This document shows, one piece after another, positions 30,671-47,400 of a DNA stretch of 64,000 nt. The position numbers and the translations under genes are program-made. The notes beneath the pieces are model-generated. The model was not told where the DNA came from, ran no database searches, and saw nothing but the letters and a program-made list of their open reading frames with translations. Every line of letters begins with the position of its first letter. Position 1 is the first letter of the stretch. The DNA is from a virus (taxonomy: Duplodnaviria; Heunggongvirae; Uroviricota; Caudoviricetes): the IMG/VR virus record IMGVR_UViG_3300006147_000008, positions 19,905-83,904 of that record; one strand, given 5' to 3'.

Positions 30671-31504
30671 TCAGACGTTGGAAACGGTTTGGAGCCTTTT
30701 CCAAATGAGCGCCAAAGGCACAAAAGACACAGCCTGTACGATGCTCTCCTGTTGTTGTCCACCCCCCCCGTTAGTTCTGACGATATCGCCATAGACAGAT
30801 GCGTAAGGAATCTGATAGGTATACAGGTACTCAAGTACATCGCTTTCAGTCCAGAAGGACATGGGCTGAGAACTGGGATTTTTCCCGGAGAAAGCGTTAC
30901 AGCCCTGGTGTAGCCACGTACTGCGACGTAATCTGCTTTCTTCCGCCATGGTTGCGATGATGGGGTGCCGACCTGTCTCCTTTTTATACTTCTTCATGGG
31001 CCGCTTTTTCATGATATTGCAGCATCGAGCAGAAACCTTAAAGGGGGCGTCCAGCAGATAGCACCACTTTTCACAGTTGAACTCTGAAGGAGTACCATTG
31101 CTCCGCATAATCTCTCCGTGAAGCTCTTTCCACCGAAAAGAGCCAGGCTTGTGCCCATATTCCACAGTGTCGGCCACTCGTTTAGAAACAACTGGGTAGC
31201 CATACCGCTCAATGATTTTGCGGAAATTCATCTCTGGACGAACAACAGTGACATTTTCACAGCTTCTGGCAAACTGCCTAACCTCTGGGAACTCCAGCCC
31301 TGTGTCTGAAAACACTGCCGGCACATCAGGGTAGATGCGCCGTACAATGTCAAGGAGCACCGTAGAATCCTTGCCCCCAGAAAAAGCCACGTAAACTTGG
31401 CCGTCGTAGTGCTGATACCACTCAATGATCCGAGCGGTCGTAATTTGGATTTTGCGTTGAAGTGGAAGCCTCTGTAGCTCTTCCAGCTGTTCCCTACTAT
31501 GCAA
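30671..31504 (-). CDS. PP-loop ATP pyrophosphatase (PAPS reductase / TtcA-like)
   Basis: VAFSGGKDSTVLLD PP-loop; Cys cluster CEKWC...CC; TTG start with RBS; contains in-frame C8 tract at about 30756. Confidence 0.6.
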   Translation of the reverse strand: MHSREQLEELQRLPLQRKIQITTARIIEWYQHYDGQVYVAFSGGKDSTVLLDIVRRIYPDVPAVFSDTGLEFPEVRQFARSCENVTVVRPEMNFRKIIERYGYPVVSKRVADTVEYGHKPGSFRWKELHGEIMRSNGTPSEFNCEKWCYLLDAPFKVSARCCNIMKKRPMKKYKKETGRHPIIATMAEESRLRRSTWLHQGCNAFSGKNPSSQPMSFWTESDVLEYLYTYQIPYASVYGDIVRTNGGGGQQQESIVQAVSFVPLALIWKRLQTVSNV

Positions 31505-31607
31505 ATCTCATACCTCCGGGACGTGGCCCACCTCCATCGCCTCCTCCGCTGATAAAATAGAGGAGGACGAGGAGGGCCACCAGAATGAGTGTGACGCCGC
31601 CCATAGC

Positions 31608-32081
31608 TTACTCCGTGGCTTCAGCAATAGGCGTCTCTGCACAGTCAGGGGCCGGCAGAGCAGAGATAACAGACGGCTTGTACTGGCCGGTGCGCTTCAG
31701 CCACTCGTTGATGACACGATTGAAGGTGTTGTCGTTGCCCATGTACTTCTTGAGCATGGCAGTGGTCAGGCCGGCCTCAGCACTGAACACATCTCCGGGC
31801 TGGCACTTCACCACCGTCTTGGTGCCGTCGCTCCAGTACACAATGGTAGCCGGATCGTTGAAAATCACGTTCGTGGGCAGCGGCAAAGGAGCGGATGCGG
31901 GTGGGTTGTTCTTCATGTGCCGCATAGCGGCGTTCCAGCCACGGACAAAAGGATCGTCTGGAACAGCGGCGTTGACTGCGGCAATAGCTGCACCCCCAAA
32001 CAGATCACCCAGAATATCGGGCAGTGTGACAGGCTTCCAAGGTTCAACGACGGGACGAGCAAAAATTTGATTCGGGTTCAT
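31608..32081 (-). CDS. hypothetical protein
   Basis: Start at RBS-preceded MNPNQIFA; 157 aa. Confidence 0.45.
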   Translation of the reverse strand: MNPNQIFARPVVEPWKPVTLPDILGDLFGGAAIAAVNAAVPDDPFVRGWNAAMRHMKNNPPASAPLPLPTNVIFNDPATIVYWSDGTKTVVKCQPGDVFSAEAGLTTAMLKKYMGNDNTFNRVINEWLKRTGQYKPSVISALPAPDCAETPIAEATE

Positions 32082-32100
32082 AATTGATTTCCTCCTATTT

Positions 32101-33033
32101 TTAATGTGCGTGTAGGTCACAATCGTTGATGATTTTGACCCGTTTCCAGATATCCTTACCGAGCATACGTTTGAACTTTTGTTCTGTCTTGCTCGGATTA
32201 TCTGAGTGGTTTATTGCAAACGGAACCATGTGCCAGCGGATCAAAAGAGCAGAGGCCAGCTGGTCATCCATGTGAAGGTCATAGTTACAGGCAAAGCTGT
32301 CGTATGCCCCCACACGCTCGTGATTGTAGAAGTGGGCGATCTCCGTGGGTTCGCCCTTGCTGTTGTGGAAAGCCTTAGTCTGCTCTTTGCCGATATCGTG
32401 GAGCAGAATAGAGCGGCTCAGGACGATATCTTGAGCCATATCACCGTAGTGACTGACGAAGTAGTTGTGGGCTGTCAGCATATGCTGACCAACTGTCAGT
32501 TGATGGTGCGGGTTGTCATGCTCTAAGGCCGAGAGGCGGATCAAGGTCTTGTTGATGATATCCTCGCTCGGCTCTACACCACGCACGATGATGTCATCCC
32601 AGCCCTCCAAATACATGGGAACATCAAATTTGTGGTACATCCGGGTGATTACACTGTCTGGGACACTGCGTTCATGCTCATGATTTTGTTGCAAGCAACG
32701 CTCATAAGAAACAGCCATGAACACACAGGTAATTTGCAAATCCCGGATACGAAGCGCCTGCACACGATCTACGAACTGCTTGCGCTGTTTGTAATTGATG
32801 TTTGTGGCGTCGTAAACCACATTCTTCCCCGCCCGCAAATCAGAGAATACGCGCTCGTGGAGGGTGCTGAACACTAAGGCTTGCTGTGTCTGGTCGTTCT
32901 CATCACCCAGCAACTCACGTCGGATCTCATCACTGGAATGTACCACCGCACCAGGACTGACACTGAGCACATTCCGAGCGAAGGTAGACTTGCCGCTACC
33001 CGGCAGTCCCACCATCATAAAGAAATTTTGCAC
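32101..33033 (-). CDS. polynucleotide kinase (P-loop) fused to HD-domain phosphoesterase (RNA end-healing enzyme)
   Basis: MVGLPGSGKSTFARN Walker A and ...YDATNINYKQRKQ kinase region like T4 Pnk; C-terminal HD motif LLHDIGK..H. Confidence 0.65.
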   Translation of the reverse strand: MQNFFMMVGLPGSGKSTFARNVLSVSPGAVVHSSDEIRRELLGDENDQTQQALVFSTLHERVFSDLRAGKNVVYDATNINYKQRKQFVDRVQALRIRDLQITCVFMAVSYERCLQQNHEHERSVPDSVITRMYHKFDVPMYLEGWDDIIVRGVEPSEDIINKTLIRLSALEHDNPHHQLTVGQHMLTAHNYFVSHYGDMAQDIVLSRSILLHDIGKEQTKAFHNSKGEPTEIAHFYNHERVGAYDSFACNYDLHMDDQLASALLIRWHMVPFAINHSDNPSKTEQKFKRMLGKDIWKRVKIINDCDLHAH

Positions 33034-33045
33034 GTCACTTCCTCC

Positions 33046-33372
33046 TCACCCCAGAAGTACCCCCAAAAGCAGGTACGTTCCGAGTTTTTTGATGTCTGGG
33101 TCATCCGGTGCGTCTGTCTCGCACTTACTTGAATTGCAGTGGAATAGTAGGTGTGCGGCACTCTCGCCATTTACCACCTTGCAAACCTTCATGATGTCGT
33201 CCGGCTCGGTCACATACTCGACCTTCCACTCAAAGCCATCCGACTTCAACTGCGGAATTGCATTGAAGAACTCCGAGGCCATTTTCCCAGCCTTTTCGAG
33301 CATCACTTCCAAAGAGTCTTCATCCTTGATCCCAGAGAGAAACTTGAGGGCGTTGAGCTGGCCGTCATTCAT
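33046..33372 (-). CDS. hypothetical protein
   Basis: Start MNDGQ with GGGAGGTG RBS overlapping NTase stop. Confidence 0.4.
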   Translation of the reverse strand: MNDGQLNALKFLSGIKDEDSLEVMLEKAGKMASEFFNAIPQLKSDGFEWKVEYVTEPDDIMKVCKVVNGESAAHLLFHCNSSKCETDAPDDPDIKKLGTYLLLGVLLG

Positions 33373-34186
33373 CCTTGTCACCTCCCTGGAGTTCTGTCAG
33401 GAAGCACCGCTTGAGAATTTCAACCGTAGCGGTGCGGAGCACTGCGTCAGCGTGCCCGTTGACTTGTACCGGCACCGCATCCATATACTGCTGCTTGTCG
33501 GCTTTCATAAAAGCAATAGTGGCGTTCATCATAGCGCGGGCCTGTTCCAATGGATAGTCACCCCGTTTGACCTCCATCAGAAAATCACGGTCGTTGCTGA
33601 CCAAGCACTCTGCGTAAGGCTCACCAGCCATATAGCGGGTCATAAACTCCCTCATGCGCAAAGCGTGGTGAAGCTGTTTGGGGTCATATCCAAACGCCTC
33701 GATTTTGTCCATAGTGCCCGGATAAGGGTGCTCCATGGCCTTTTGCTTTTCCAAAGCCATACCCATCAGACAGTTCATACCGGCGTAGTTGTTATAGCGG
33801 GCAATCTCCTCACGGGCGTCCAACACCGACTGGAACAAATCGGCGTATTTGGGATTGAGAATGCGATAACGAGTGAACAGGATCTCCACGAAGTTCACAT
33901 TCTGCTTTTTGATGCACTCGAACATCAACCGGATATCCTTGAAGTCAACGTGCTCGTTGTTCTCCATAATGTGAGTGGTACTGATGGGCTTAGAACACAG
34001 CACGAAATCGGAGAAGTTGGGCAACAGGATGGCCTTGGTGTCAATGTCACTGCCCGCATAGTCCAACTCGTAATTCTGGGAGCCTTGGAGAAAAATGCCC
34101 ACCCATTCCCGCCCAGTGGCCCGCACCGCATCGAGGTGTTGATGGATGCGGGCCATGATCTTGTTTTTCTTCTCTGCTACGTTCAT
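33365..34186 (-). CDS. minimal nucleotidyltransferase (Pol-beta superfamily)
   Basis: GSQNYELDYAGSDIDTKAIL = GS-x10-DxD NTase signature. Confidence 0.55.
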   Translation of the reverse strand: MNVAEKKNKIMARIHQHLDAVRATGREWVGIFLQGSQNYELDYAGSDIDTKAILLPNFSDFVLCSKPISTTHIMENNEHVDFKDIRLMFECIKKQNVNFVEILFTRYRILNPKYADLFQSVLDAREEIARYNNYAGMNCLMGMALEKQKAMEHPYPGTMDKIEAFGYDPKQLHHALRMREFMTRYMAGEPYAECLVSNDRDFLMEVKRGDYPLEQARAMMNATIAFMKADKQQYMDAVPVQVNGHADAVLRTATVEILKRCFLTELQGGDKDE

Positions 34187-34199
34187 CCTGCGCCTCCTT

Positions 34200-34340
34200 A
34201 GATGGGTTCGGGCAGGTTGGGGTTGTACCGGCCAACATACTTGCCGTCCTCAAAGATCAGCCGGTAGCCATCGGGCAGTTCCAGGTAGTTGCGGTCGTCC
34301 CCACAGGGGATTTTCTTCATGCCCTCAATGCAGACGTTCA
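34200..34340 (-). CDS. small hypothetical protein (47 aa)
   Basis: ATG-initiated MNVCIEGMKKIPCGDDRNYLELPDGYRLIFEDGKYVGRYNPNLPEPI between NTase and ligase. Confidence 0.25.
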
Positions 34341-35849
34341 TCCCTCATCTCCTCCTCTCTCAATTTCTTGGGCTTCCTCCATATCAGGTGCGGCGGCGGT
34401 GTCCTTAATCAGCCCCTCCAGTACCTTGAAATAGAAGTTTTTATGCTTGTAAGCAGTGAACTTGGGGCGGTTGACGATCCGACAGACAACACCTTCGCGG
34501 ATGTGGGACTTGCCCACAGGATCAGGGCCGTCGTAAAACTGTTCTGCCACAGACTTTACATACTCGCCAGCGTTCACAGCATGGGGAGATCCCACATTGT
34601 CGGAAAGCTGAACCATGTCGGGAATGAAGCCGCGCCAGAACAGCGGCACATACTTGACACCCATCTGTTCACAGCGATAGCGCATAAAGTCGGGTGAATA
34701 CTCCACCACATCACCGTCCTCATTGGTCATGGTCATACGGTAGACATAGAGGTCGGACTTGGGGCAGTCCACAGGATTAAGCGGTTGATTCACGAAGTCG
34801 GAAACTTCAATCTCCGGCCCGCCGTCTGTGGATACTTTACCGGGGCCGAAGTGGATAGCATCAGCCATCTTCTTGCCAGTAGGATCACAACCATAACTAA
34901 ATACGGTCATCTTGCCATACTGCTTGGCAAACTCCTTGTCATTCACCTTGGCATTACTACCAGGAGACATGATAGGTGTTCCGTCGTTGGTGAAGCCCAC
35001 CACCTCGTAGTAGACCGTCTCGCCCTTGCGGAGCTTCCCTTCAAAAACCTTGGCGTGCTGCTCACGGAAAGCATTGCTACCGTAGTAGCCTCCATTCTCA
35101 AAGTCATCCAGTACCACGCGGCGAGTGCCAGTCACATAGCCCCAGTCGTACACCGGCGTCCGCTTGATCCGGTTGCGAAGCCAAAGCGGAGTATGCTTGC
35201 CCTCGGAGAAAAACTTCCCCATGCGACTTTGGTACTTGTACCCTTGGAGAACAGGAAGGTAGCCGGTACGCTGAGAAGTACCGTGCATTTTCAGTGTGAT
35301 CTCCACCAAATCGCCCGGACGGAAAGCAGAGAGGTTGTAGGCCAGCTGCTCGGTATCGGCGTGCTCCTGGAACAGCGGGGAGATAGGGTCAGAGCGTTTA
35401 CGAACATGGTTGCCCTTATCCCCGCCGCCATATCTCTGAGATTTCCGCTTGGGGATATACTTTTCACAGATGGTCACACCGTTCAGCACGGTGATGGTGT
35501 CGCCCTCGGAGAGCTTGGAGACATCGGTAAACCCGTCCAAGCAGGACAGCGGCATGAACAGCCCGTCGCTCTGTTCACCACGGAGCTTCAGTGCCTTGAT
35601 ATTCCGCTTCTCAGGGTCGAGATATCCACCTGCGGGGTTGCCATTCTCATCCTTCCGCCGCAAAAGGTCGTGCTTCTGGGAAAACTCAAGACCGAGCCTG
35701 CCGTCCACTGGGAAATAAACACCCAGCTGGTCAGGCTGCGTCCCCAGATCCACAATTACGGTGTTGCCAAAACACTCGCCACAGAGAAGTCGGTCGGCGT
35801 TGCTGTGCTTCCGCAGATTGCGTATCCGAGTAACATACGCACAGTACAT
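34338..35849 (-). CDS. RNA ligase (Rnl2-like KxHGxN motif) with N-terminal tRNA-binding (Myf/EMAP-like OB) domain
   Basis: N-term ...HSNADRLLCGECFG..VIVDLG...LRGEQSDGLFMPLSCL matches tRNA_bind domain; ITLKMHGTSQR = nucleotidyltransferase motif I as in T4 Rnl2 KIHGTN. Confidence 0.6.
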   Translation of the reverse strand: MYCAYVTRIRNLRKHSNADRLLCGECFGNTVIVDLGTQPDQLGVYFPVDGRLGLEFSQKHDLLRRKDENGNPAGGYLDPEKRNIKALKLRGEQSDGLFMPLSCLDGFTDVSKLSEGDTITVLNGVTICEKYIPKRKSQRYGGGDKGNHVRKRSDPISPLFQEHADTEQLAYNLSAFRPGDLVEITLKMHGTSQRTGYLPVLQGYKYQSRMGKFFSEGKHTPLWLRNRIKRTPVYDWGYVTGTRRVVLDDFENGGYYGSNAFREQHAKVFEGKLRKGETVYYEVVGFTNDGTPIMSPGSNAKVNDKEFAKQYGKMTVFSYGCDPTGKKMADAIHFGPGKVSTDGGPEIEVSDFVNQPLNPVDCPKSDLYVYRMTMTNEDGDVVEYSPDFMRYRCEQMGVKYVPLFWRGFIPDMVQLSDNVGSPHAVNAGEYVKSVAEQFYDGPDPVGKSHIREGVVCRIVNRPKFTAYKHKNFYFKVLEGLIKDTAAAPDMEEAQEIERGGDEG

Positions 35850-35908
35850 TGTTTATCACTCCTTCAAGAGATTTTGTTGCACCAAAAGCAAAAAAGGTAC
35901 AAAAAAAA

Positions 35909-37066
35909 TTAGGGATACATAGTTTTCAACCGATGTACAGCCTCAGCGATAGCCTGGGCCGTATCCACCATGTCGTTTGCCGTATTGTCATACCCCAGTG
36001 AGATACGGACTGTTGACGCTGCGTCTTCATCTGACAGCCCAATTCCTTTTAGAACATGGGACGGTACAGAGTCGGATGCGCTGCAAGCAGAGCCGGCAGA
36101 AAGATAAATTTCCTTTTGATCCAGCAAAAGAAGCAGTGCTTCACTGTTCACACCTGGAATTGTTATGCTGATGATGTTATGGGTTCGCAAATCGGCGGCG
36201 TTCTGCCGATACTCTCCAGGCATTACCTTATCCAGCTCTTTCAACAGAACATATTCCTGACTGTTCCACTTTTGAATTTGCCGAGGAAGCCGATGAATGA
36301 TAATCTCAGCAGCTTTGCCAAGACCTACGATGCCGGGCACATTGTATGTTCCCGCTCTCATGCCGTGCTCCTGTCCGCCACCACCGATTAGCGCCCTCTT
36401 GGAAACTCCATTGCGTACATAGAGCACTCCAACACCAGGAGGTGCGCCGAACTTATGCCCGGACATCGAGAGGAAATCCATACCACACTTCTTAACGTCG
36501 ATGGGAATGTGGCCCGCCGCCTGCACAGCATCCACATGGAAAGACAATCTATTCTTTTTACAAAGCATTGCAATTTCCTCAATGGGATTGATCGTGCCAA
36601 GCTCGTTGTTTACCCACATCACAGACACAGCTTGATAACAGCTGGAATCAAGGAGGTGTCTTAGATCGTCCATATCCACACTTCCGTCTGACAGGTTCTT
36701 CACATAGGTGACTTCATGTGCCCACTCTTCCAGTGGATGAGGCACGGAATGATGTTCAAGTCTGGTTGTGATAACTCGCTCACCCATAACATATCGGGCA
36801 AATGTGTTGTTGGACTCCGTACCACCGGAGGTAAAGAAAATCTCCGATGTATCAGCGTTGATCATTTTGGCAACCTGTTCACGAGCGTTCTCTATGGCCT
36901 GCGATGCGTTCACGCCCTGCGTGTGAATACTGCTGGCGTTACCTACATGATCCGGCTGAAACCAAGGAAGCATGGCTTCCAAAACCTCTGGGAATACGGC
37001 TGTGGTCGCTGCATGGTCGAGATAAATCACTGGTATCACCTCTTTCTGAAAAAGAGGCTCAGACAA
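35909..37066 (-). CDS. cysteine desulfurase (class V aminotransferase, NifS/IscS-like)
   Basis: PLP-lysine motif SMSGHKFGAPPGVGVLYV; 385 aa. Confidence 0.85.
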   Translation of the reverse strand: MSEPLFQKEVIPVIYLDHAATTAVFPEVLEAMLPWFQPDHVGNASSIHTQGVNASQAIENAREQVAKMINADTSEIFFTSGGTESNNTFARYVMGERVITTRLEHHSVPHPLEEWAHEVTYVKNLSDGSVDMDDLRHLLDSSCYQAVSVMWVNNELGTINPIEEIAMLCKKNRLSFHVDAVQAAGHIPIDVKKCGMDFLSMSGHKFGAPPGVGVLYVRNGVSKRALIGGGGQEHGMRAGTYNVPGIVGLGKAAEIIIHRLPRQIQKWNSQEYVLLKELDKVMPGEYRQNAADLRTHNIISITIPGVNSEALLLLLDQKEIYLSAGSACSASDSVPSHVLKGIGLSDEDAASTVRISLGYDNTANDMVDTAQAIAEAVHRLKTMYP

Positions 37067-37134: not shown

Positions 37135-38688
37135 TTAAGAGAAGCGCAGAGCATCCTCGACGGGCTGATAGCGATCCACATTGATGGCTTCCAGCAAACA
37201 CTCGTAGGGGTCGAGCTTGCCGCTCATAACCATCTTGGCGATGTTCACAGAGAAACCACTGACCAAGGCAACGCCCATATCGTTCTCCTTGACGGGGATG
37301 GTGCCCGTGCGAGAGGCCACATTCCAGAACACCAACCGAGGCATCTTGTAGCCCGCTGCCTCATACCGCTTGGCAATCTCCTTGAACAAGTTGGCGTTGG
37401 GACGGCCAGAAGAGTAGGAAGACCAGCCGGTGCCCCACACCGTACCCGCCGTCGTGCAGGAGTCAAACTCCATATCGGAGATGATGAGGATATTGGTAGG
37501 CAGCTCATCCTGCTCCATATGGTTGGCCTTGGCCGTCTCCAGAATCAGGTCGAAAACCGCCTCCACATTGGTGTTGGCACCGGCGTGGTGATCGTGGGTG
37601 ATGCGCAGCTTCTCATAGAGGTTCTTACCGTTACGCAGGCTGATGAGCTGGGGCCGATCAGAAAAGCTCATATACTGATCCTTGAACTGACCAGAGGAAC
37701 GCTCGGCGAAATAGATCGCCAAGGCGTTCGCCACCTCCAAGGGGCGGGCAGTGCTGCCGGGCAGGTTCACCCATTCCATGCTCCCACTGTCATCCATGAC
37801 CACCATCGTGTTACCACATCCACTCACGGTATCGGGCAGGTTGCTCCACAGCGCCTCCAGCGTGTCGTCCACGTTATACGCACTGCGATACTTGTTGACG
37901 ATCTCATGCGGGAAAAGAGCGCCAGCATTGATGTGGCTCTCACCCTTCTTCACGCTTTCCAAGAAAGCGCGGCGGCGATCCTCGTCATGGCGGAGGAAAG
38001 CCTTGTTGTACACCAGATTGGCACGGGAGGGGACACGGGGGTACTCGATCTCGTCCCACTGCTGGGCGGACATCTGCTGCTCCACGACCTTGAGGTAGTT
38101 GCAGAGGATAGCCAGCGTGGACTGGTATTCACTCTCGGTCATGTGCAGTCCCTTCCGCATGGTCTGGCCGTAGCTTCTCGTCCGCTTGGAAGATGTCTTG
38201 CAGCGGGGCATCCACTTGGCGAGAAGGGATACGGGCTTCTTCGCCATACGGTTTTCTGTGTCCTCCATGAGCTGCTGGCGCACCAGGCTGATCACGTCCT
38301 CCTTGAGGGGCGTATCCAGTAGGCACCACAGGTCGTCCCAACGGCCATATTCTGGCACCAGCGGGATGATGGGCTTGATATACTGCGGCATGGTTTTCGC
38401 CATGTCAAGCAACACAGCCCGGAACAGCCGCCGCTCACCCAGACCGCCACGCACATCACGTGCGTAAAACAGCCATTTCATAGCCGTCAGCTTGTCATCG
38501 AAGAACGCCTTGGAGAAACGCTTGGCAATCTCCGTCTCCGGCGTTTTCCGTAGGGAGGCCACGGCAAAGCTCAGATCCAACAAATTCTTTCCCGTGGTGC
38601 GGTAGCCCACTGCGCCGTTCTCGGTGATAGAAACGTTGTGGTTGTCCCCGTTCAGCGTGTCCTTCATGCTGTTCATAAAGTCACCCAT
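37135..38688 (-). CDS. vWA-domain protein with large N-terminal domain (DUF2828-like; possible TROVE/Ro60-like RNA-binding protein)
   Basis: C-terminal MIDAS TMVVMDDSGSMEW (DxSxS) vWA; 517 aa; first gene downstream of tRNA-like array. Confidence 0.55.
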   Translation of the reverse strand: MGDFMNSMKDTLNGDNHNVSITENGAVGYRTTGKNLLDLSFAVASLRKTPETEIAKRFSKAFFDDKLTAMKWLFYARDVRGGLGERRLFRAVLLDMAKTMPQYIKPIIPLVPEYGRWDDLWCLLDTPLKEDVISLVRQQLMEDTENRMAKKPVSLLAKWMPRCKTSSKRTRSYGQTMRKGLHMTESEYQSTLAILCNYLKVVEQQMSAQQWDEIEYPRVPSRANLVYNKAFLRHDEDRRRAFLESVKKGESHINAGALFPHEIVNKYRSAYNVDDTLEALWSNLPDTVSGCGNTMVVMDDSGSMEWVNLPGSTARPLEVANALAIYFAERSSGQFKDQYMSFSDRPQLISLRNGKNLYEKLRITHDHHAGANTNVEAVFDLILETAKANHMEQDELPTNILIISDMEFDSCTTAGTVWGTGWSSYSSGRPNANLFKEIAKRYEAAGYKMPRLVFWNVASRTGTIPVKENDMGVALVSGFSVNIAKMVMSGKLDPYECLLEAINVDRYQPVEDALRFS

Positions 38689-38784
38689 TTTCTCTTACCT
38701 CCTTGATTTTGAGATACTCGGAACACATAGGGATTTTTGTTGTTCGTGTTCAGAGATGTACCCGTCTTTCCGGGTTGTCTAAGG

Positions 38785-38907
38785 TACGGCGGGTAGGATT
38801 TGAACCTACGAATGGCAGCTTGGCTTCCTTTTTACATTGCTGTTAGTGAAACTGGGGTGTTCCACATTTTATAGGGCTGCTGTGTTAAACCACTTCACCA
38901 CCGCCGT
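38785..38907 (-). ncRNA. tRNA-like RNA A (about 123 nt): canonical arms plus about 56-nt insert between anticodon-stem strands
   Basis: 7-bp acceptor ACGGCGG/CCGCCGT, D-arm GGTG..CACA, T-arm GTAGG-TTCAAAT-CCTAC; GCAGC...GCTGC encloses an insert with hairpin GTGGAAC-N6-GTTTCAC and ACAGCAA box. Confidence 0.55.
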
Positions 38908-38912
38908 GTAGG

Positions 38913-39030
38913 TGCCAGGGGTTGGATTTGAACCAACGACCTTCGGCTCCTGGCCGACGCTCTATCCAGATAAACTTGCTGTTCACGCCTCTTAAAAGAC
39001 GCACGTTTTTTTTGACTGAGCTACCCTGAC
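38913..39030 (-). ncRNA. tRNA-like RNA B (about 118 nt): about 44-nt insert in D-loop
   Basis: Acceptor GTCAGGG/CCCTGGC, TAGCTCAGTC...TGGATAGAGC D-arm split by insert (hairpin CGTCTT-TTAA-GAGGCG + ACAGCAA), T-arm GTTGG-TTCAAAT-CCAAC; anticodon loop non-canonical. Confidence 0.55.
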
Positions 39031-39036
39031 ATATGT

Positions 39037-39156
39037 TGCGGCAGGCAGGACTCGAACCTACAGTGTAGCGGTTCCCATTAGCATACCTTGCTGTCAGTGA
39101 AACCAGACGTTTCACATTTTGCATTACCGCCGTGTCTACCATTCCACCACTGCCGC
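39037..39156 (-). ncRNA. tRNA-like RNA C (about 120 nt): about 53-nt insert in anticodon region
   Basis: Acceptor GCGGCAG/CTGCCGC, D-arm GGTGGAATGGTAGACAC, stem GCGGT/ACCGC around insert (GTGAAAC-GTCTG-GTTTCAC hairpin + ACAGCAA), T-arm GTAGG-TTCGAGT-CCTGC. Confidence 0.55.
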
Positions 39157-39280
39157 ATAAATGCTCGTCTTTCCAAGCTGCCATCGGTTCTCCACTTTTC
39201 GTTGTCTGAACCGAAAACTTGGCCCACGCTGGTTCAAATTCTATCTGGAGAGAATGGAACCAGAAACTAAATACTCCTTG

Positions 39281-39397
39281 TGCCAGGGGTGGGACTCGAA
39301 CCCACGACCACGGGATTAAAAAGTCCTTTTGAAAATTGCTGTGCGCGTTTCCTTGAATACGCATTGATACGTGCTCTATCCGCTGAGCTACCCTGGC
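39281..39397 (-). ncRNA. tRNA-like RNA D (about 117 nt): insert after a canonical D-arm
   Basis: Acceptor GCCAGGG/CCCTGGC, D-arm GCTC-AGCGGATA-GAGC, T-arm GTGGG-TTCGAGT-CCCAC; insert with hairpin TGCGT..ACGCG + CACAGCAA. Confidence 0.55.
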
Positions 39398-39985
39398 TTA
39401 TCATATGTGTGGGTGAGGATTTCCACCTCACAAAGCGTCTTCTACCGTTCGTGTGCGCACACTCTGGGCGGTTCTCACGCCTGAACCACTTGCGTCTACA
39501 TATTCCGCCACCACACATATAATCCTGGCTCTCACAGGTGGGAGCGGTACGTTCTCCCAGATGTTCCGATTTGCACGGTCACTACACTTATTTTACGTCC
39601 GTTGCTGATCACCATTAGACGGCGTTCTCTGTACCAGAGCAATCGCATTGTGCGAACGCATTTTGTTTCCCCAAATTTACGGATGATTTGCTGTTAGCGT
39701 CCATTGTTATCATTTTTCAAAAATCGCACTGAAAGCGGTGAATGTGTTGCTACTCAGGATTGGATTAGGGCTTGTCTCGTGCTTTATTCATTGCAGATCC
39801 TCCTTAGCTGCTTCCCTGAAAATTCCGCACTTATGTGGGCGGCTCACATTTTGAGATCACATTGGGGCAACCGCCCCGCACATTTTCGCAGCCGATTTAC
39901 ATTTTTCAAAGTAGGGCTTAAACGGTCTGGTCACGTGCTCTATTCATGGCACGAACCTCCTTTCTAAGACTCTTATGACGGCTTT

Positions 39986-40100
39986 AGGGGAGCTGCGGAG
40001 TTGAACCGCAAGCAAAAGATTTCCATTCTTTTTTTTGGTAAGATTGCTGTAAGTGTCCGCCGTTGATTACACTTTTATGTGCTGCCACCGGACGCTCCCC
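39986..40100 (-). ncRNA. tRNA-like RNA F (about 115 nt): D region replaced by structured insert; candidate anticodon GGA
   Basis: Acceptor GGGGAGC/GCTCCCC, T-arm TGCGG-TTCAACT-CCGCA, anticodon arm AAAGA-ATGGAAA-TCTTT; insert contains TTACAGCAAT box. Confidence 0.4.
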
Positions 40101-40176
40101 GTATTGCCCGTCTTTCCAGGCTGTCAGTGGTCTTTCCCACCGTCAGAAAGGGGGTCGCCGCCCACCACAGCGGCGA

Positions 40177-40267
40177 TGGCGAAGGGAGCGGGACTCGAAC
40201 CCACACGTCCTTGCGGGCTACTGCTGGTTTAGCAAACCAGTGCCTTACCAGTTAGGCTTATCCCTCC
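40177..40267 (-). tRNA. tRNA-Ser (anticodon GCU), type II with long variable arm, encoded CCA
   Basis: Acceptor GGAGGGA/TCCCTTC, anticodon stem CTGGT/ACCAG with loop TTGCTAA, 19-nt variable arm, T-arm GTGGG-TTCGAGT-CCCGC, 3' GCCA; promoter-like ACAGCAAT box 68 nt upstream (about 40335-40346). Confidence 0.7.
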
Positions 40268-40499
40268 ATGTGCAGCCTGGGCCGCAACGAGACGCATTAA
40301 ACGTGACGAATTAGCAGTTCGTTGTTTTTTTGATTGCTGTTAGCGTCTCACTACTCACATCGTCAGGCTGTGTTCCAACCCGGCGATTGCTCGGCTCATG
40401 CCGGCGATCCGTCCACGCAGAGAGTCTATCGTCTGCTGTATCTCCTCCTTGTCGTGGGAGACAGGCACACTCTTCTTTCCGAATGCCATAGCGCCCTCC

Positions 40500-44413: not shown

Positions 44414-47400
44414 TTACTCAATCACCTGTTTGCCCCAGGAAAGATAGGACAATCCCTTGTCATCCACCTTGCGAGACATCAGCAGACTCATAAGGTCATA
44501 GTCCACGCCGAAGCGGTTATACACCTCATCCAAGTCCACATCCTGCCCCTTCATAAACAGGTTCAACTTCTCCTTTGCAAGAACCATCTGCATTTGGTTA
44601 GACTCAATGCTTCCAGAGTAGGTAACAAAGTAGATGTCCTTCCAGTCTGTAGAGGTGAAGCGGACAAACCTCATATAGAACTGGCTCATCCGGGCATTAT
44701 TATAGTGCAGCTCTGGGATAACCACCTTGTTTACAAACTCGAAGTTGACCGAAGATGGGAGGCATTGCTGAGTACAGACCATAATGCCATTGCCGCTTTC
44801 CTTCAGAGACTTTTTCAGCTTCCGCCGTCCGGCCAAGGTCGTGGTGCTGCCAGTGACGGTAAACAGCTTACGCTTAGGGAAACGCTGCCGAATTGCCTCA
44901 GTGTATGCCTCCACAACGTTTTTATGGCGGACACCGATTACCACGACCTCATCATTCCACTCTGCCACCATATCGCAGACCTTCCTGATCTTGACTGGCA
45001 AATCCGCACTGTCGTATTCCTCCACAGTGTTGGGGGCGGCAGAAATACGCAGGAGCAGGGTGATTTGCTGGATCAGAGCCATCATGCTATCCTTTCGGCT
45101 GTTTCCGGTGAGGGCAAAATACCGCTGACGCAACGCAAAAAACTCCTCAACCGCTTTCCGATACACCTCGCGTTCCACGGAGGAGAACGACACAGGAACC
45201 TGGTGGATGCGACGGATCTCCTTGCCCGTGATTTCCGCGAACGTTCTGGTAATGACAGCGTAAGACAACATCCTGTTCAGCGCGTCCGCATTGTAGATAT
45301 CCTGGGTCTTTTTACCAACACCAAACACGGTGATCTTCTCCGGCAAATGAGACTCAGCAAACAAACGGTATCCAGGCTTGTAGGCGGGGATGGGCTTGCC
45401 ATAGAAGGGGTTGTTAGTGCTGCCCAGCCAGCTACCGTCCTCGTCTTTTTCATACTGATACAAGCACTCCGCCCAAGAAATCATATTGTAAGAGTTGTTA
45501 TAAAGCAGTTCCAGCTGTGGCGCACTCTCCGAGATGTTGTTCCGAGTGACGGTGCCAGTCATTTCCAGCTTAAACCGAACCTTTCTGAAGCAATCCAGTA
45601 CAGCCTTGGTGCGTTTGCTATCTGGGTTGGTCATCTCATCGCTCTCGTCAAATACCAAATCCACGTTCCGCTGCCGCATCTTGATGTGGCGCTTGATCTG
45701 CTTGCGGTACTTGGAGAGCATATTCAGGGTGATGATGACAAACTCACCATCCCTTACCCCATCCAGGTCGGAGAGGGTGCGGATCATCCGATAGTTGGTC
45801 ATACCATAGTTTTTGAACACCAGATCCCAGTTATTTTTGATGGAGATAGCTGTGGACACAACCCAGACGTTCCGAGCACCCTGCCGCTCCATACGATACC
45901 TACCCGTAGCGATACCTGCCAGCGTCTTGCCGCCGCCCTGCTCCCACTGTAGGAGATGGTAACGCTTCTGTAAGATCAGGTTGAGGTTATGCTTCTGAGT
46001 GTCGTTAAGGTGTATCCACTCCTCATTCTCATTATCATAGACGGTAAACTCGTCCAAGAACCGAGCAATCTTAGCGTCCAGCTCCATCTCTTCAAAGGGT
46101 TTTGTCTCTCGGTCATAGTCACGCTGCTTGCGGCGAATGAGACGGGCATACTGCTCTAAACCCGTGCCGTCCATCTGCCCCGAAACGAGAGCGTAAAACG
46201 GGACAAACTGCTTCATTTCCAACGTCATGGACTGCCGTACCTTTTTACTATACCCTTTGTAAATCAGTCCGCCGTCCTGCTTGACCAACCGGATCACATC
46301 GCGGCTGGGCTTCTTGTGCTGGGACTTGACCACACGCCGAAGATAGGCCAGCACCTTAGCTTCTGTAATGCGGATTTTTGCCCACTCCTCGTATTTCATA
46401 TCGGCGGGCTGAACCTGGTGCTGGAACTTATACAGATACTCCTGGCACTTGGCGTACTTGTCGGCCAGCTTGGGGTTTTTCTTAATGTGAAACAACATCT
46501 TCTGCACTTGGTAGTCAAACTCACTGCAATTATCACTGCGTCCAAGCAGCTCGGCACGAGCGCGATTTTGTTGCTTCAGCATTTTGGCAGGAGCCACGAT
46601 TTTCTCCTTGGTGTAACGCAGTAGATCGGCGGTGTCATCCAGGCTGAACATTTGAGCGTCGCAATCCAAACGGTAAACGCCGGAGACTTCCTCACCGTCC
46701 ATTCGTTTCTGCCAGAACATCACCTTTGTAAGATAGTTGGTTACACCCAGATATCTGAACGCGCCGCCCATAATCTCAATCTGTCCCATAAAGGAAAAGT
46801 GCTTTTCCATCTCTGCAATTTTTTGTTTATCCATATAATCATCAGAGAGGAATTGTGCTGGCACCACGATAGCCATGATACCCAGGGGCTTGAGAAGCTG
46901 CGCTGCCTTGAGACAGTAGTACATCTGAGAAATATACTCTGTATCATCCACCTGCCATTTCAGATTGAAGGGCGGATTGCCCACCACAAAATCGAAGTGC
47001 ATATCCGGCTCATAGAAACGAATGTCCTTATGCTCCAAATTGGCGGCAGGGTAGAGATAGTGAGCAACCTTATGGGATTTGATATCCAGCTCACAGCCAT
47101 AGAAGTTGGCCTCCACCGGCATGAAGTTGGCAAAGTGCGCCATCCCGGAGGTAAGGTCGGCTACGGTGTCGGTCATCCCTACATCCAGTGCCTCCATGAT
47201 GAACTGGCACAGGGCAGGCGGAGTGAAGAACTGCCCGTTCTCGATCTCCTTCTTAGCCTCGCCGTACTCGTGGTAGTTGGCAAAATCCGACCGTTTCAGG
47301 CCGTGCAGTCCGCCGTCGCCGGTGTAAGCGTTGAAGATATCCTCACGGGTGATGCCCTCCTGCTCCGCTATATCCTGATCGACGATATAGAGGATCTTGT

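What the first reader, a model, noticed from the sequence alone, without database searches (positions are those of the whole stretch)
38785..40346. Tandem array of over-long tRNA-like genes, each carrying a conserved hairpin + ACAGCAA insert, next to one normal tRNA-Ser
Five minus-strand elements (about 38785-38907, 38913-39030, 39037-39156, 39281-39397, 39986-40100) show a perfect 7-bp acceptor pairing between their termini and canonical T-arms (GTAGG-TTCAAAT-CCTAC, GTTGG-TTCAAAT-CCAAC, GTAGG-TTCGAGT-CCTGC, GTGGG-TTCGAGT-CCCAC, TGCGG-TTCAACT-CCGCA); four of the five also have a recognisable D-arm (F lacks one). They are 115-123 nt long instead of 74-95 nt. Each holds a 45-56-nt insert, in the anticodon region for A, C and D and in the D-loop or D region for B and F. 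The inserts are homologous: a short hairpin (for example GTGAAAC-GTCTG-GTTTCAC in C and GTGGAAC-ACCCCA-GTTTCAC in A) is immediately followed by YRACAGCAA(K). No standard 7-nt anticodon loop can be restored by simple excision. One neighbouring gene (40177-40267) is a perfectly ordinary tRNA-Ser(GCU) with CCA, so the odd ones are not an artefact of misreading the strand. The same ACAGCAAT box also sits 68 nt upstream of tRNA-Ser and at about 39690. Possible interpretations: (a) a new class of protein-spliced tRNA introns, whose processing would need the adjacent kinase/phosphoesterase and RNA ligase; (b) Y-RNA-like tRNA mimics, in which the extra hairpin is a protein-binding module for the adjacent vWA/Ro60-like protein; (c) tRNA genes invaded by a miniature mobile insert.
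Basis: seen in the sequence. Interest (0 to 1): 0.9.

Follow-up and report, generated by a model that had tools for sequence, protein, structure and literature searches.

The report
Y-RNA-like tRNA chimeras beside phage Ro60
The over-long "tRNA genes" are real, conserved RNAs in which a small hairpin plus the box ACAGCAA is grafted onto a tRNA body; this graft is found next to a Ro60-like protein gene in very many phages, so it is most likely that protein's docking site (a new branch of the Y-RNA/YrlA tRNA mimics), not a new kind of intron.

Summary
Rfam's tRNA model finds four minus-strand elements of 117-123 nt (A-D), each with a 52-57 nt insert. A fifth (F) and two ACAGCAA boxes are also real. 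The insert is a covarying 7-bp hairpin, 2 nt, then ACAGCAA. All nine related phages keep it at the same sites, so it is not a recent mobile insertion.

A pattern scan found the same module in dozens of unrelated viral contigs, and only one window protein recurs beside it: the adjacent DUF2828/vWA protein. Its predicted fold matches Ro60 (TROVE+vWA).

Seven of eight cultured phages checked (Felix O1-like, Listeria, Campylobacter, Enterococcus, Bacillus, Fusobacterium, mycobacteriophage LeBron) carry stand-alone RNAs beside this gene: a 7-bp terminal stem, NN, ACAGCAA. KVP40 has the box in the gene's own 5' leader. Thirty-five are circularly permuted tRNA mimics with the YrlA layout, and Rfam's YrlA model hits six of them below threshold. 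The window's elements are the unpermuted topology.

Best reading (0.6): Y-RNA analogues that dock tRNA-shaped RNAs and anticodon loops on a Ro60-like protein, in a tRNA-repair gene cluster.

Main rival (0.22): interrupted or permuted pre-tRNAs that are spliced.

Binding and RNA fate are untested.

The parts
38785..38907 (-). Element A. tRNA body (Gly-GCC-like) with the module inserted in the anticodon loop. The best excision gives CC|GCCAA or AAGCCAA, neither with U33.
   Evidence: Rfam tRNA 49.7 bits with a 52-nt insert; module 38833-38873, 36.6 bits; orthologues in L001/2/4/6
38913..39030 (-). Element B. tRNA body with the module inserted in the D loop (position 16/17). The anticodon arm is UCGGC-CAGGA-GCCGA, which is non-canonical.
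   Evidence: Rfam tRNA 44.3 bits; module 38972-39010, 34.8 bits; removing the insert restores an AGUC/GGAUA D loop (sequence)
39037..39156 (-). Element C. tRNA body (Pro-UGG-like) with the module in the anticodon loop. The loop would read AAUGGGA, with A33.
   Evidence: Rfam tRNA 39.3 bits; module 39084-39123, 38.2 bits
39281..39397 (-). Element D. tRNA body (Lys-like) with the module inserted in the 5' strand of the anticodon stem after nt 28 (insert about 39327-39369). Excision gives CGGGA-CUUUUUAA-UCCCG, an 8-nt loop.
   Evidence: Rfam tRNA 46.4 bits; module 39332-39370, 24.7 bits; orthologues give canonical AUUUUAA, CUGUUAA and AUGCUAA loops
39986..40100 (-). Element F. It has an acceptor stem, a T arm and an intact anticodon-like stem-loop (AAAGA-AUGGAAA-UCUUU). 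The module replaces the D region.
   Evidence: Sequence; weak module hit 40040-40078, 19.9 bits; z-score -4.35; orthologues carry GCA, GUA, GCA and UGA loops on the same body
40289..40349 (-). Mini RNA M1. A 7-bp terminal stem (GAGACGC/GCGUCUC), then UA, ACAGCAA, a linker and a 5-bp/7-nt stem-loop ACGAA-CUGCUAA-UUCGU. It has no tRNA body.
   Evidence: Sequence and fold; orthologues in L001/2/4/6 keep the stem and box but change the loop
39653..39703 (-). Mini RNA M2. A terminal stem (UGGACGC/GCGUUCG), then UA, ACAGCAA and a short inner hairpin.
   Evidence: (14.9 bits)
40177..40267 (-). Ordinary class II tRNA-Ser(GCU) with encoded CCA, embedded in the array and conserved in the relatives that have this flank.
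   Evidence: ARAGORN; Rfam 52.2 bits
37135..38688 (-). Ro60-like protein (alpha-solenoid DUF2828 plus vWA-like DUF7788, with a DxSxS MIDAS motif). Predicted partner of the module.
   Evidence: Pfam; PHROG 850 'RNA-binding protein'; AlphaFold model, pLDDT 74.5; Foldseek top hits 9kop, 9l5y and 2nvo, all Ro60, E 6e-8 to 5e-6; invariant D299, S301, S303
30671..37066 (-). Downstream genes, conserved only in close relatives: NifS-like desulfurase 35909-37066; RNA ligase 34338-35849; nucleotidyltransferase 33365-34186; polynucleotide kinase + HD phosphoesterase 32101-33033; PAPS-reductase/PP-loop protein 30671-31504.
   Evidence: Pfam; PHROGs; tblastn distribution

Best explanation
[quoted passage not shown] This is the same relationship that Y RNAs and YrlA have with Ro60.

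The shared module is a 7-bp helix whose strand is followed by 2 nt and single-stranded ACAGCAA, and whose partner strand is preceded by an A-rich tract. I infer that this module is the protein's docking site.

In most phages the helix is the terminal stem of the RNA. The interior is then either small (mini RNAs such as M1 and M2) or a circularly permuted tRNA-like domain: T arm, capped acceptor stem, D arm.

In this phage lineage the topology is flipped. The acceptor stem is open, as in a normal tRNA, and the docking helix is capped. The module therefore looks like an insert branching from a solvent-exposed site: the 5' strand of the anticodon stem, the anticodon loop, or D-loop position 16/17.

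The resulting RNP would present tRNA-shaped bodies and anticodon stem-loops. I infer, without having shown it, that it works in the conflict over tRNA cleavage and repair. It could be a bait or decoy for host anticodon nucleases, a platform that recruits tRNA-recognising repair enzymes, or both. In this phage the repair enzymes would be the adjacent RNA ligase, kinase-phosphoesterase and nucleotidyltransferase.

Shown: the RNA anatomy, its conservation and covariation, the genomic linkage, and the Ro60-like predicted fold.

Inferred: protein binding to ACAGCAA, stability of the full-length RNAs, and the biological role.
For: 1. **Protein.** The predicted structure aligns over about 500 columns with three Ro60 structures (9kop and 9l5y from Thermus phage phiLo, 2nvo from Deinococcus), E 5.7e-8 to 4.5e-6. 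The vWA domain has an intact MIDAS motif.

2. **Linkage found without using the protein.** A DNA-pattern scan (ACAGCAA N20-50 GGTTCRANTCC) returned 120 viral loci.
   - Among all window ORFs, only the DUF2828 protein recurs in many of them: 33 loci, against at most 3 for any other ORF.
   - Module-positive loci are enriched for the gene: 15 of 22 against 18 of 98, Fisher p = 1e-5. The gene usually lies 200-900 nt away on the same strand.

3. **Flank counts.** In 46 distinct DUF2828 loci, the +/-1.5 kb flanks hold 163 ACAGCAA copies on the sense strand and 7 on the antisense strand. Of these, 121 against 1 have an adjacent 7-bp helix. 42 of 46 loci have at least one.

4. **Loci fetched only through the protein.** All nine close relatives carry the module. 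Seven of eight cultured phages have 1-3 stem+NN+ACAGCAA RNAs next to the gene: Alf5 (Felix O1-like), Thrax2, Fnu1, LeBron, Listeria LP-124, Campylobacter NCTC12673 and Enterococcus EFDG1. Sigma70-like promoters sit directly upstream in Thrax2, Fnu1 and L055.

5. **KVP40.** GACAU-UU-ACAGCAA...AUGUC encloses the Shine-Dalgarno sequence and start codon of the DUF2828 gene itself. This looks like an autoregulatory operator.

6. **Permuted tRNA mimics.** 35 terminal-stem elements are permuted tRNA mimics with the YrlA order T - acceptor hairpin - D. Rfam YrlA (RF02553) hits six of them at 32-41 bits, E 3e-6 to 4e-3, below its gathering score of 69.

7. **The module works without a tRNA.** M1, M2 and many others have no tRNA body.

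8. **Anticodon loops change on conserved bodies.** D orthologues carry UUU, GUU and GCU. F orthologues carry GGA, UGA, GCA and GUA. M1 orthologues carry GCU, UUU, UUG and UCU. Several loops are non-canonical (8-nt, A33 or C33, 5-nt). This fits display or mimicry better than decoding.

9. **Precedent.** Canonical phage and bacterial Ro60 genes have Y-like RNAs encoded beside them on the same strand (PMC4201824, PMC12135203).
Against: - No binding, expression or RNA-end data exist. ACAGCAA as the protein's site rests on co-occurrence alone.
- 33 of the 46 loci in the flank count were fetched with a pattern that contained ACAGCAA, so that count is inflated. The protein-fetched loci are the clean subset.
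- Precise excision of the insert restores a single canonical cloverleaf (5-bp anticodon stem, U33, R37) in 20 elements. Some capped acceptor loops read NCCA. Insert sites vary as archaeal introns do. All three points are what interrupted or permuted tRNA genes would also show.
- The structure model is of medium quality (pLDDT 74.5, TM 0.4-0.5). No sequence-level match to Pfam TROVE or to any PDB chain was obtained.
- The proposed decoy or repair-platform role is speculative.
Confidence: 0.6

Rival explanations
1. Interrupted and permuted pre-tRNAs. On this reading the module is a processing signal: an intron in the unpermuted genes, and a leader-trailer helix in the permuted ones. It is cut out and the exon ends are joined, which in the permuted genes circularises the RNA; RNase P and 3' trimming then open the acceptor stem. 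The products are working tRNAs. The Ro60-like protein would organise the reaction, and ligase, kinase-phosphatase and CCA-adding activities would heal and seal the ends.
For: - An exhaustive excision scan gives exactly one canonical mature tRNA for 20 elements, including Lys-UUU, Thr-UGU, Val-UAC, Asp-GUC, Arg-UCU, Asn-GUU and Pro-UGG.
- Insert sites vary (anticodon stem, anticodon loop, D loop), as in archaeal non-canonical introns.
- Permuted and unpermuted forms share the same junction.
- Some acceptor caps contain the discriminator base plus CCA.
- This phage places an RNA ligase, a PNK-HD and a nucleotidyltransferase next to the array. Listeria phage LP-124 has RtcB 1.3 kb from the gene.
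- In some arrays the interrupted gene supplies an anticodon missing from the normal set, for example Arg-UCU in L055.
Against: - Mini RNAs with the same module have no tRNA body to mature.
- No endonuclease or ligase family travels with the module. The window's ligase family was not found in the Felix O1-like, Listeria, Campylobacter, Staphylococcus or Enterococcus phages that have the gene and the RNAs.
- The distance from ACAGCAA to the 3' junction varies from 5 to 12 nt or more, and the junctions have no conserved sequence. No conserved junction helix was seen by eye either; a bulge-helix-bulge motif was not searched for systematically.
- Many acceptor caps are only 3-4 nt long, and one is GAAA.
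- The Gly-like A family lacks U33 in four of five orthologues. The window's B, C and D give non-canonical loops.
- L006's D orthologue has a GCU anticodon on a class I Lys-like body, which standard identity rules would leave uncharged.
- Some interrupted genes duplicate a normal tRNA in the same locus: Pro-UGG in L055 and Thr-GGU in L085.
Confidence: 0.22
2. tRNA genes recently invaded by a miniature mobile DNA element (MITE- or PATE-like), with no function at the RNA level.
For: The same ~45-nt module occurs at different positions in different tRNA bodies and also in intergenic DNA.
Against: - Orthologous inserts sit at identical positions in nine relatives whose flanking protein is about 70% identical.
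- Copies within one genome differ in hairpin sequence but keep the pairing: all 7 pairs covary.
- The elements are strictly strand-specific relative to the gene, 121 against 1.
- I saw no terminal repeats or target duplications when reading the sequences.
- No insert-free allele of the D body exists in IMG/VR.
Confidence: 0.03
3. The helix+ACAGCAA unit is a transcript-processing or transcription signal for the tRNA/sRNA operon. Examples would be a nuclease entry site, punctuation, or a phage promoter or terminator. It would be unrelated to the Ro60-like protein, which would be linked only because both sit in tRNA clusters.
For: - The units are interleaved with tRNAs in polycistronic arrays.
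- A second repeated hairpin (GGAAAGAC loop) also punctuates this array.
Against: - The unit follows the DUF2828 gene even where no tRNA is nearby: Fnu1, LeBron, and the KVP40 leader.
- In the one large tRNA array checked with the module model (Thrax2, L132), no hairpin-type module flanks the normal tRNAs.
- It lies inside tRNA bodies rather than between them.
- The consensus scan found no excess of promoter-like or terminator-like sites.
Confidence: 0.07

Closest known systems
YrlA-type bacterial and phage Y RNAs bound by Ro60/Rsr (Rfam RF02553; Chen et al. 2014, PMC4201824; phiLo Yrl1/2, PMC12135203)
   Same: - Small RNAs encoded beside a Ro60-type (alpha-solenoid + vWA) gene, on the same strand and often in multiple copies.
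- A terminal stem with a short conserved box near the 5' end.
- A tRNA-like domain with T arm, acceptor-like stem and D arm, branching where the anticodon stem would be.
- A 7-bp acceptor stem, as in M. smegmatis YrlA, which RNase P opens and which then receives CCA.
- Frequent neighbourhood with RNA ligases.
- Rfam YrlA detects the permuted members at 32-41 bits.
   Different: - The protein belongs to the DUF2828/DUF7788 families, not Pfam TROVE.
- The box is ACAGCAA, not GNCGAAN0-1G; the latter occurs only once, by chance, in the array.
- No member reaches the YrlA gathering score, and there is no YrlA hit at all in this window.
- The window's RNAs are not permuted: the acceptor ends are free and the docking helix is capped.
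- Many members keep a complete 5-bp/7-nt anticodon stem-loop, which YrlA lacks.
- Up to nine elements occur per array.
Archaeal and eukaryal protein-spliced tRNA introns, and the permuted tRNA genes of Cyanidioschyzon merolae (from my own knowledge; not tested against models here)
   Same: - Short inserts at varied positions, including the anticodon stem and the D loop.
- Exact excision restores a cloverleaf.
- Interrupted and circularly permuted gene forms coexist and share one junction motif.
   Different: - No bulge-helix-bulge motif was evident.
- No splicing-endonuclease homologue was found in the neighbourhood.
- The conserved element is a hairpin plus a single-stranded heptamer inside the insert, not a structure at the junctions.
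- The same element occurs in RNAs that have no tRNA body.
Phage T4 Pnkp + Rnl1 tRNA repair, and the bacterial rsr-yrlBA-rtcBA RNA-repair operon (PMC7790460; the T4 system from my own knowledge)
   Same: The gene neighbourhood in this window combines a Ro60-like protein, its RNAs, an ATP-dependent RNA ligase and a kinase-phosphoesterase. That is the logic of healing and sealing cleaved tRNA anticodon loops.
   Different: - The repair genes are conserved only in the close relatives.
- No damage sensor or regulator such as RtcR is present.
- The substrates are unknown.
Group I introns in bacterial and phage tRNA genes
   Same: They interrupt the anticodon region of tRNA genes in bacteria and phages.
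   Different: - The inserts here are 40-57 nt, far below a group I catalytic core.
- No intron or ribozyme family was found by Rfam even at E <= 10.

Membership tests
tRNA (Rfam RF00005) | Cloverleaf with acceptor, D and T arms that scores above the curated threshold | tested here: met
   A, B, C and D score 39.3-49.7 bits against a gathering score of 29, despite the inserts. F gets no hit.
tRNA (functional decoder) | Continuous 5-bp anticodon stem with a 7-nt loop, U33 and a purine at 37 | tested here: not met
   As transcribed, no element has this. After the best excision, D has an 8-nt loop, A has C33 or A33, C has A33, and B has a 5-nt loop or CCAGGAG. It is met after excision in 20 homologues from other contigs.
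Y RNA / YrlA (RF02553) | Encoded next to a Ro60-type gene, on the same strand | tested here: met
   The array ends 97 nt upstream of the gene. The same arrangement is seen in 42 of 46 loci.
Y RNA / YrlA (RF02553) | Partner protein is a Ro60 orthologue (TROVE ring + vWA) | tested here: inconclusive
   The predicted fold matches Ro60 structures at E 6e-8 to 5e-6. There is no Pfam TROVE hit and no PDB sequence hit. I read it as a paralogous family.
Y RNA / YrlA (RF02553) | Conserved GNCGAAN0-1G box near the 5' end | tested here: not met
   The only match in the array lies in B's anticodon arm. ACAGCAA occupies the equivalent place.
Y RNA / YrlA (RF02553) | tRNA-like domain in the order T arm - capped acceptor stem - D arm, inside a terminal stem | tested here: not met
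   The window elements have the normal tRNA order with free acceptor ends. The feature is met by 35 homologous elements elsewhere.
Y RNA / YrlA (RF02553) | Score at or above the Rfam gathering threshold (69 bits) | tested here: not met
   No YrlA hit in the window at E <= 10. Permuted homologues score 32-41 bits.
Y RNA / YrlA (RF02553) | Physical binding to the Ro60-type protein | not testable with these tools
   Needs RIP/CLIP or EMSA.
Protein-spliced tRNA intron (archaeal/eukaryal type) | Bulge-helix-bulge (or relaxed) motif that places both splice sites | tested here: inconclusive
   No conserved junction structure or sequence was seen in aligned junctions, and linker lengths vary. No dedicated BHB search was run.
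Protein-spliced tRNA intron (archaeal/eukaryal type) | Splicing endonuclease available | tested here: not met
   No such domain was found among the 17 window ORFs scanned, most of them in the 30.6-47.5 kb neighbourhood (Pfam and PHROGs). No protein other than DUF2828 co-occurs with the module.
Group I intron / small self-cleaving ribozymes | Match to a catalytic-core covariance model | tested here: not met
   cmscan at E <= 10 over 38700-40420 returns only tRNA and noise.
Miniature mobile element | Near-identical copies, presence/absence polymorphism, no strand or structure constraint | tested here: not met

The most novel reading that the evidence does not exclude
The helix+ACAGCAA unit is the processing signal of a phage tRNA maturation pathway that has no counterpart in bacteria. 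Interrupted and circularly permuted tRNA genes would be cut and re-joined on a Ro60-like protein scaffold. This would be protein-dependent tRNA splicing and circularisation outside archaea and eukaryotes. It could keep phage tRNAs in a nuclease-proof, inactive form until they are needed.
Probability: 0.2. Interest if true: 0.9.

Novelty: new variant of a known kind. Interest (0 to 1): 0.72.

Why it matters
**A missing RNA partner.** Ro60-like 'RNA-binding protein' genes (DUF2828) are annotated in 711 phage records in the collection searched. These include workhorse and therapy-relevant phages: Felix O1-like phages, Listeria P100-like phages, Campylobacter, Enterococcus and Staphylococcus phages, KVP40, and cluster L mycobacteriophages. 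I found no description of their RNA partners, and Rfam 15 has no family for these RNAs.

**What this analysis adds.**
- It gives the proteins a candidate ligand with a simple signature: a 7-bp helix, NN, then ACAGCAA.
- It shows that this ligand comes in three interconvertible topologies: mini, permuted tRNA mimic, and unpermuted tRNA with a grafted docking hairpin.
- It shows that the displayed anticodon loops change quickly between related phages.

**Why it is useful.**
- The long-open question of what the tRNA-like domain of bacterial Y RNAs is for becomes testable in tractable systems: E. coli with a Felix O1-like phage, M. smegmatis with LeBron, and Listeria with a P100-like phage.
- It also flags mis-annotation. 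These RNAs are missed by tRNA finders, left as unannotated gaps, or overlapped by hypothetical ORFs.

Tried and rejected
- **Known RNA families for the insert.** Rfam at the gathering threshold and at E <= 10 gave nothing but tRNA.
- **blastn of the array against 50,697 phage records.** No match.
- **A fixed rule for the 3' junction (8 nt after ACAGCAA, then GG).** It holds in the close relatives but fails in distant elements, where the distance is 5-12 nt or more.
- **ARAGORN on all possible excision products.** It accepts almost anything, so it is uninformative. I replaced it with a strict cloverleaf filter.
- **Search for insert-free alleles of the D body in IMG/VR.** It returned only two unrelated ordinary tRNAs, Lys and Gln.
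- **Window ligase, kinase, NifS and nucleotidyltransferase genes as universal partners of the module.** Rejected. They recur only in the nine close relatives. The ligase family is absent from most DUF2828 phage groups.
- **Promoter and terminator consensus scan of the array.** No excess over shuffles.
- **Sequence-level link of the protein to solved structures.** No hit. Only the fold comparison worked.
- **Literature searches.** I searched for tRNA introns in phages, DUF2828, ACAGCAA and 'Ro-like'. None describes these RNAs. The supplementary phage list of Chen et al. 2014 was not available. I therefore cannot exclude that a few of these phages were screened there with the YrlA model.


Full report
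**1. What is in the window**

All elements below lie on the minus strand.

Each alignment skips 52-57 inserted nucleotides.
- Rfam also finds the ordinary tRNA-Ser(GCU) at 40177-40267. ARAGORN sees only tRNA-Ser.
- The quoted acceptor and T-arm sequences are right.
- F (39986-40100) gets no Rfam hit. It has a 7-bp acceptor stem, a T arm and the same box, and it folds far better than shuffles (z-score -4.35).
- ACAGCAA occurs 23 times in the window, against 10.0 +/- 3.2 expected. Seven copies lie in this 1.5 kb on this strand.
- The window is part of a large phage genome. It encodes a DNA polymerase, a primase-helicase and an anaerobic ribonucleotide reductase.

**2. The insert is a conserved RNA module, not debris**

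- Nine IMG/VR contigs encode a ~70% identical neighbour protein. All nine carry module-bearing elements immediately upstream of the gene. Eight show 114-124 nt tRNA-like genes at matching positions plus a normal tRNA-Ser. The ninth has too short a flank to show these.
- The module is an A-rich tract ending in U, then a 7-bp hairpin, then 2 nt (UA, UC, CU, UU or UG), then ACAGCAA, then a U/A-rich linker.
- In an alignment of 24 diverse modules, every one of the 7 pairs shows double compensatory changes. There are 55 such cells, against 13.2 in shuffles. Slid controls collapse to 36-46% paired. The rows had been chosen for pairing, so only the covariation counts as evidence.
- T-stem pairs that I did not select on pair in 50 of 51 distinct elements, with 4-6 pair types each.
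- A covariance model of the module (R1) hits nothing in the 64 kb except A, B, C, D, F and the box at 39690.
- No Rfam family matches the module, even at E <= 10.

**3. The module is widespread and tied to one protein**

From these and the relatives I extracted 51 distinct over-long tRNA-like genes of 106-144 nt.

*Which protein recurs.* I then asked which window proteins recur in these loci, which had been fetched by DNA pattern alone.
- Only the protein at 37135-38688 recurs widely: 33 loci at 33-59% identity.
- The ligase, kinase, NifS and nucleotidyltransferase genes recur only in the nine close relatives.
- Module-positive loci contain the gene in 15 of 22 cases, against 18 of 98 for the rest (Fisher p = 1e-5). 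The gene usually lies 200-900 nt away on the same strand. Most exceptions are truncated loci.

*Flank counts.* Across 46 distinct loci, the 1.5-kb flanks of the gene hold 163 sense and 7 antisense ACAGCAA copies. Of these, 121 sense and 1 antisense have an adjacent 7-bp helix. Thirty-three of these loci were ascertained through ACAGCAA, so the clean evidence is the set fetched through the protein alone.

*Cultured phages fetched through the protein.* Seven of the eight cultured phages examined show the module beside the gene.
- Alf5 (Felix O1-like) has two stem-NN-ACAGCAA RNAs and one permuted tRNA mimic just downstream of the gene.
- Bacillus phage Thrax2 has three, behind a TTGACA-17-TATAAT promoter.
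- Fusobacterium phage Fnu1 has one, behind a similar promoter.
- LeBron has two. Listeria LP-124 has three. Campylobacter NCTC12673 has two. Enterococcus EFDG1 has two.
- In the eighth, KVP40, GACAU-UU-ACAGCAA...AUGUC wraps the ribosome-binding site and start codon of the gene itself. This is what an autoregulatory operator would look like.

*Rfam check.* Rfam 15 annotates none of these RNAs at its gathering thresholds.

**4. The protein is Ro60-like**

- Pfam gives DUF2828 + DUF7788 and a weak vWA match. PHROGs gives 'RNA-binding protein'. Sequence searches of the PDB find nothing.
- An AlphaFold model from a 26-sequence alignment (pLDDT 74.5) is an alpha-solenoid followed by an alpha/beta domain.
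- The best Foldseek matches in the PDB are the TROVE domain and Ro60 dimer of Thermus phage phiLo (9kop, 9l5y) and Deinococcus Rsr (2nvo). E-values run from 5.7e-8 to 4.5e-6 over ~500 aligned columns. vWA domains follow at much weaker scores.
- D299, S301 and S303 (DxSxS, the MIDAS motif) are invariant in the alignment.
- Some GenBank records already call homologues 'Ro-like RNA binding protein'. LeBron gp53 is moderately toxic when overexpressed (PMC13148394). No RNA partner is described there.

**5. Three topologies of one RNA family**

(i) *Mini RNAs.* These have a 7-bp terminal stem. Its 5' strand is followed by NN-ACAGCAA, and its 3' strand is preceded by ...AAU. In between lies a small interior.
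- The window has two. M1 (40289-40349) has an interior that forms a 5-bp/7-nt stem-loop, ACGAA-CUGCUAA-UUCGU. M2 lies at 39653-39703.

(ii) *Permuted tRNA mimics.* Thirty-five terminal-stem elements pass a strict test for this order: ACAGCAA, linker, T arm, 7-bp acceptor stem capped by a 3-11 nt loop, UA, D arm, A-rich linker, closing strand.
- This is the YrlA layout. Rfam's YrlA model hits six of them at 32-41 bits, below its gathering score of 69.
- Several of them also carry a complete anticodon stem-loop, split at the same place as in type (iii).

(iii) *Unpermuted tRNAs with the module helix capped.* These are the window's A-D and F. Types (ii) and (iii) are circular permutations of each other.
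- The module branches from the 5' strand of the anticodon stem after nt 28-30 in most cases, including D.
- It can also branch from the anticodon loop (A, C), from D-loop position 16/17 (B), or from the D region (F).
- From textbook tRNA structure, these are solvent-exposed sites.

Arrays can interleave the types. L055 has nine elements behind one promoter, just after the gene.

**6. Intron or permanent graft?**

*For excision.*
- An exhaustive deletion scan required a 5-bp anticodon stem, a 7-nt loop, U33, a purine at 37 and a D arm. It yields exactly one mature sequence for 20 elements. Examples are CGGGA-AUUUUAA-UCCCG (Lys) and ACGGC-AUUGUAA-GCCGU (Thr), as well as Val, Asp, Arg, Asn and Pro.
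- Some acceptor caps read NCCA.
- This phage has an RNA ligase, a PNK-HD and a nucleotidyltransferase next door.

*Against excision.*
- The same module sits in RNAs that have nothing to mature.
- No nuclease or ligase travels with it.
- The junctions have no conserved sequence, and the linkers vary in length.
- Many acceptor caps are only 3-4 nt long.
- The Gly-like A family lacks U33 in four of five orthologues. The window's D, C and B give an 8-nt loop, A33, and a 5-nt loop.
- Orthologous bodies carry different anticodons:
  - D: UUU, GUU and GCU, with the 35-nt 3' portion identical in three of the four lineages compared.
  - F: GGA, UGA, GCA and GUA.
  - M1: GCU, UUU, UUG and UCU.
- A class I Lys-like body with anticodon GCU should not be chargeable by standard identity rules (my own knowledge).
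- A three-way junction that keeps the anticodon stem paired across the graft predicts the 'unique excision' result equally well.
- The M. smegmatis YrlA precedent already shows a Ro60-bound tRNA mimic with processed, tRNA-like acceptor ends: a 7-bp acceptor stem opened by RNase P, CCA added, and both halves still bound to Rsr (PMC4201824).

I therefore favour a stable RNP at 0.6 over splicing at about 0.2.

**7. How it most likely works**

*Shown.* The RNA anatomy, the conservation, the linkage to the gene, and the protein's predicted fold.

*Inferred.*
- The Ro60-like protein docks on the helix and on the single-stranded ACAGCAA. This box sits where the GNCGAA box of YrlA sits, just after the 5' strand of the terminal stem.
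- The tRNA-shaped body and its anticodon loop are then presented to tRNA-recognising factors.

*Supporting context.*
- The DUF2828 gene sits beside tRNA clusters in seven of the eight cultured phages examined; in the window it follows this array, which includes a normal tRNA-Ser.
- RNA-repair enzymes lie nearby: here, in Listeria phage LP-124 (RtcB) and in LeBron (RNA ligase and polynucleotide kinase elsewhere in its genome, PMC13148394).
- The displayed loops turn over quickly between related phages.

*Most plausible role.* The conflict over anticodon-loop cleavage. The RNP could be bait or decoy for host anticodon nucleases, a scaffold that brings repair enzymes to tRNA-like substrates, or both. 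This last step is speculation and is scored as such.

**8. Comparison and novelty**

The closest known system is Ro60 with YrlA-type Y RNAs.

*Membership in the YrlA family is not met.* The conserved box differs. The partner protein belongs to a different Pfam family. CM scores are sub-threshold, and there is no YrlA hit at all in the window. The window's elements have the opposite topology.

*It works like that system in these respects.* The RNAs are encoded beside the gene on the same strand. They have a terminal or docking helix with a short box. They mimic tRNA, and the docking helix branches at the anticodon stem.

Neither Rfam 15 nor the literature I could search describes these RNAs. 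I rate this a new variant of a known kind.

Three features would surprise a specialist:
- the breadth across cultured phages;
- the interconversion of permuted and unpermuted forms;
- the retention and rapid exchange of complete anticodon stem-loops.

Noticed in passing
window 39405-39517 (-): A further tRNA-like element with no ACAGCAA module. It has a 7-bp acceptor stem (UGUGUGG/CCACACA), a 3-bp D stem, a 7-bp 'anticodon' stem with an 8-nt loop, a long variable arm, and a T arm with the loop UGGAAAU. Neither Rfam nor ARAGORN calls it. MFE -37.5 kcal/mol, z-score -1.5.
   Followed up: partly
window 39918-39947 (-) and 39765-39791 (-): Two tiny ORFs with strong Shine-Dalgarno sequences sit inside the RNA array: MNRARDQTV* and MNKARDKP*. 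They are conserved in the relatives L001, L002 and L004 (MNRARDQTI, MSRARDQTI, MNKVRDKP, MNRTRDKP). A GC-rich hairpin region lies between them. They could be leader peptides or a regulatory device.
   Followed up: partly
window ~40137, 40117, 39174, 38771 (-): Four hairpins of 4-5 bp share the loop GGAAAGAC, for example CCCG-GAAAGA-CGGG. They flank F, C and the end of the array. The minus strand of the window has 5 GGAAAGAC copies and the plus strand has 1. They are conserved at matching places in L001, L002, L004 and L006. This looks like a second repeated RNA signal, possibly for processing or protein binding.
   Followed up: partly
window 39281-39397 (-), anticodon loop ~39312-39319: Element D has an 8-nt loop, CUUUUUAA, where its orthologues have AUUUUAA. 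This is either a homopolymer assembly error or a frameshift-suppressor-like loop.
   Followed up: no
L130 (Vibrio phage KVP40) 3960-4005: ACAGCAA lies in the 5' leader of the DUF2828 gene. A 5-bp stem (GACAU/AUGUC) encloses the Shine-Dalgarno sequence and the start codon. This suggests translational autoregulation.
   Followed up: partly
L131 (Escherichia phage Alf5) ~8410-8545 and 7700-7950: A permuted tRNA-mimic RNA lies antisense to an annotated hypothetical CDS (locus 8321-8644), so that CDS call may be spurious. Two mini RNAs and two unannotated tRNA-like genes fill the 400-nt 'empty' gap between tRNA-Glu and tRNA-Tyr.
   Followed up: partly
L055 7967-8218: This viral contig encodes a two-piece (permuted) tmRNA (Rfam cyano_tmRNA, 116 bits). 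It also has about 26 normal tRNAs, in addition to nine ACAGCAA/CAGCAA elements. Its mini RNAs use the variant box UU-CAGCAA.
   Followed up: no
window 30671-31504 (-): The PAPS-reductase/PP-loop protein carries a weak match to a GH-E HNH-type nuclease motif (residues 110-143). Together with the NifS-like gene at 35909-37066, it suggests phage-encoded thiolation of tRNA (or DNA).
   Followed up: no
window 44414-47458 (-): A 1014-aa fusion of an N6-adenine methyltransferase with a ResIII/DEAD helicase, which is type ISP or type III-like. It lies upstream of the array.
   Followed up: no
Pfam DUF2828 in the literature: All five papers that mention DUF2828 concern eukaryotes: four on plants and one on a tardigrade genome. 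This Ro60-like family therefore also exists in eukaryotes, where no RNA partner is known either.
   Followed up: no
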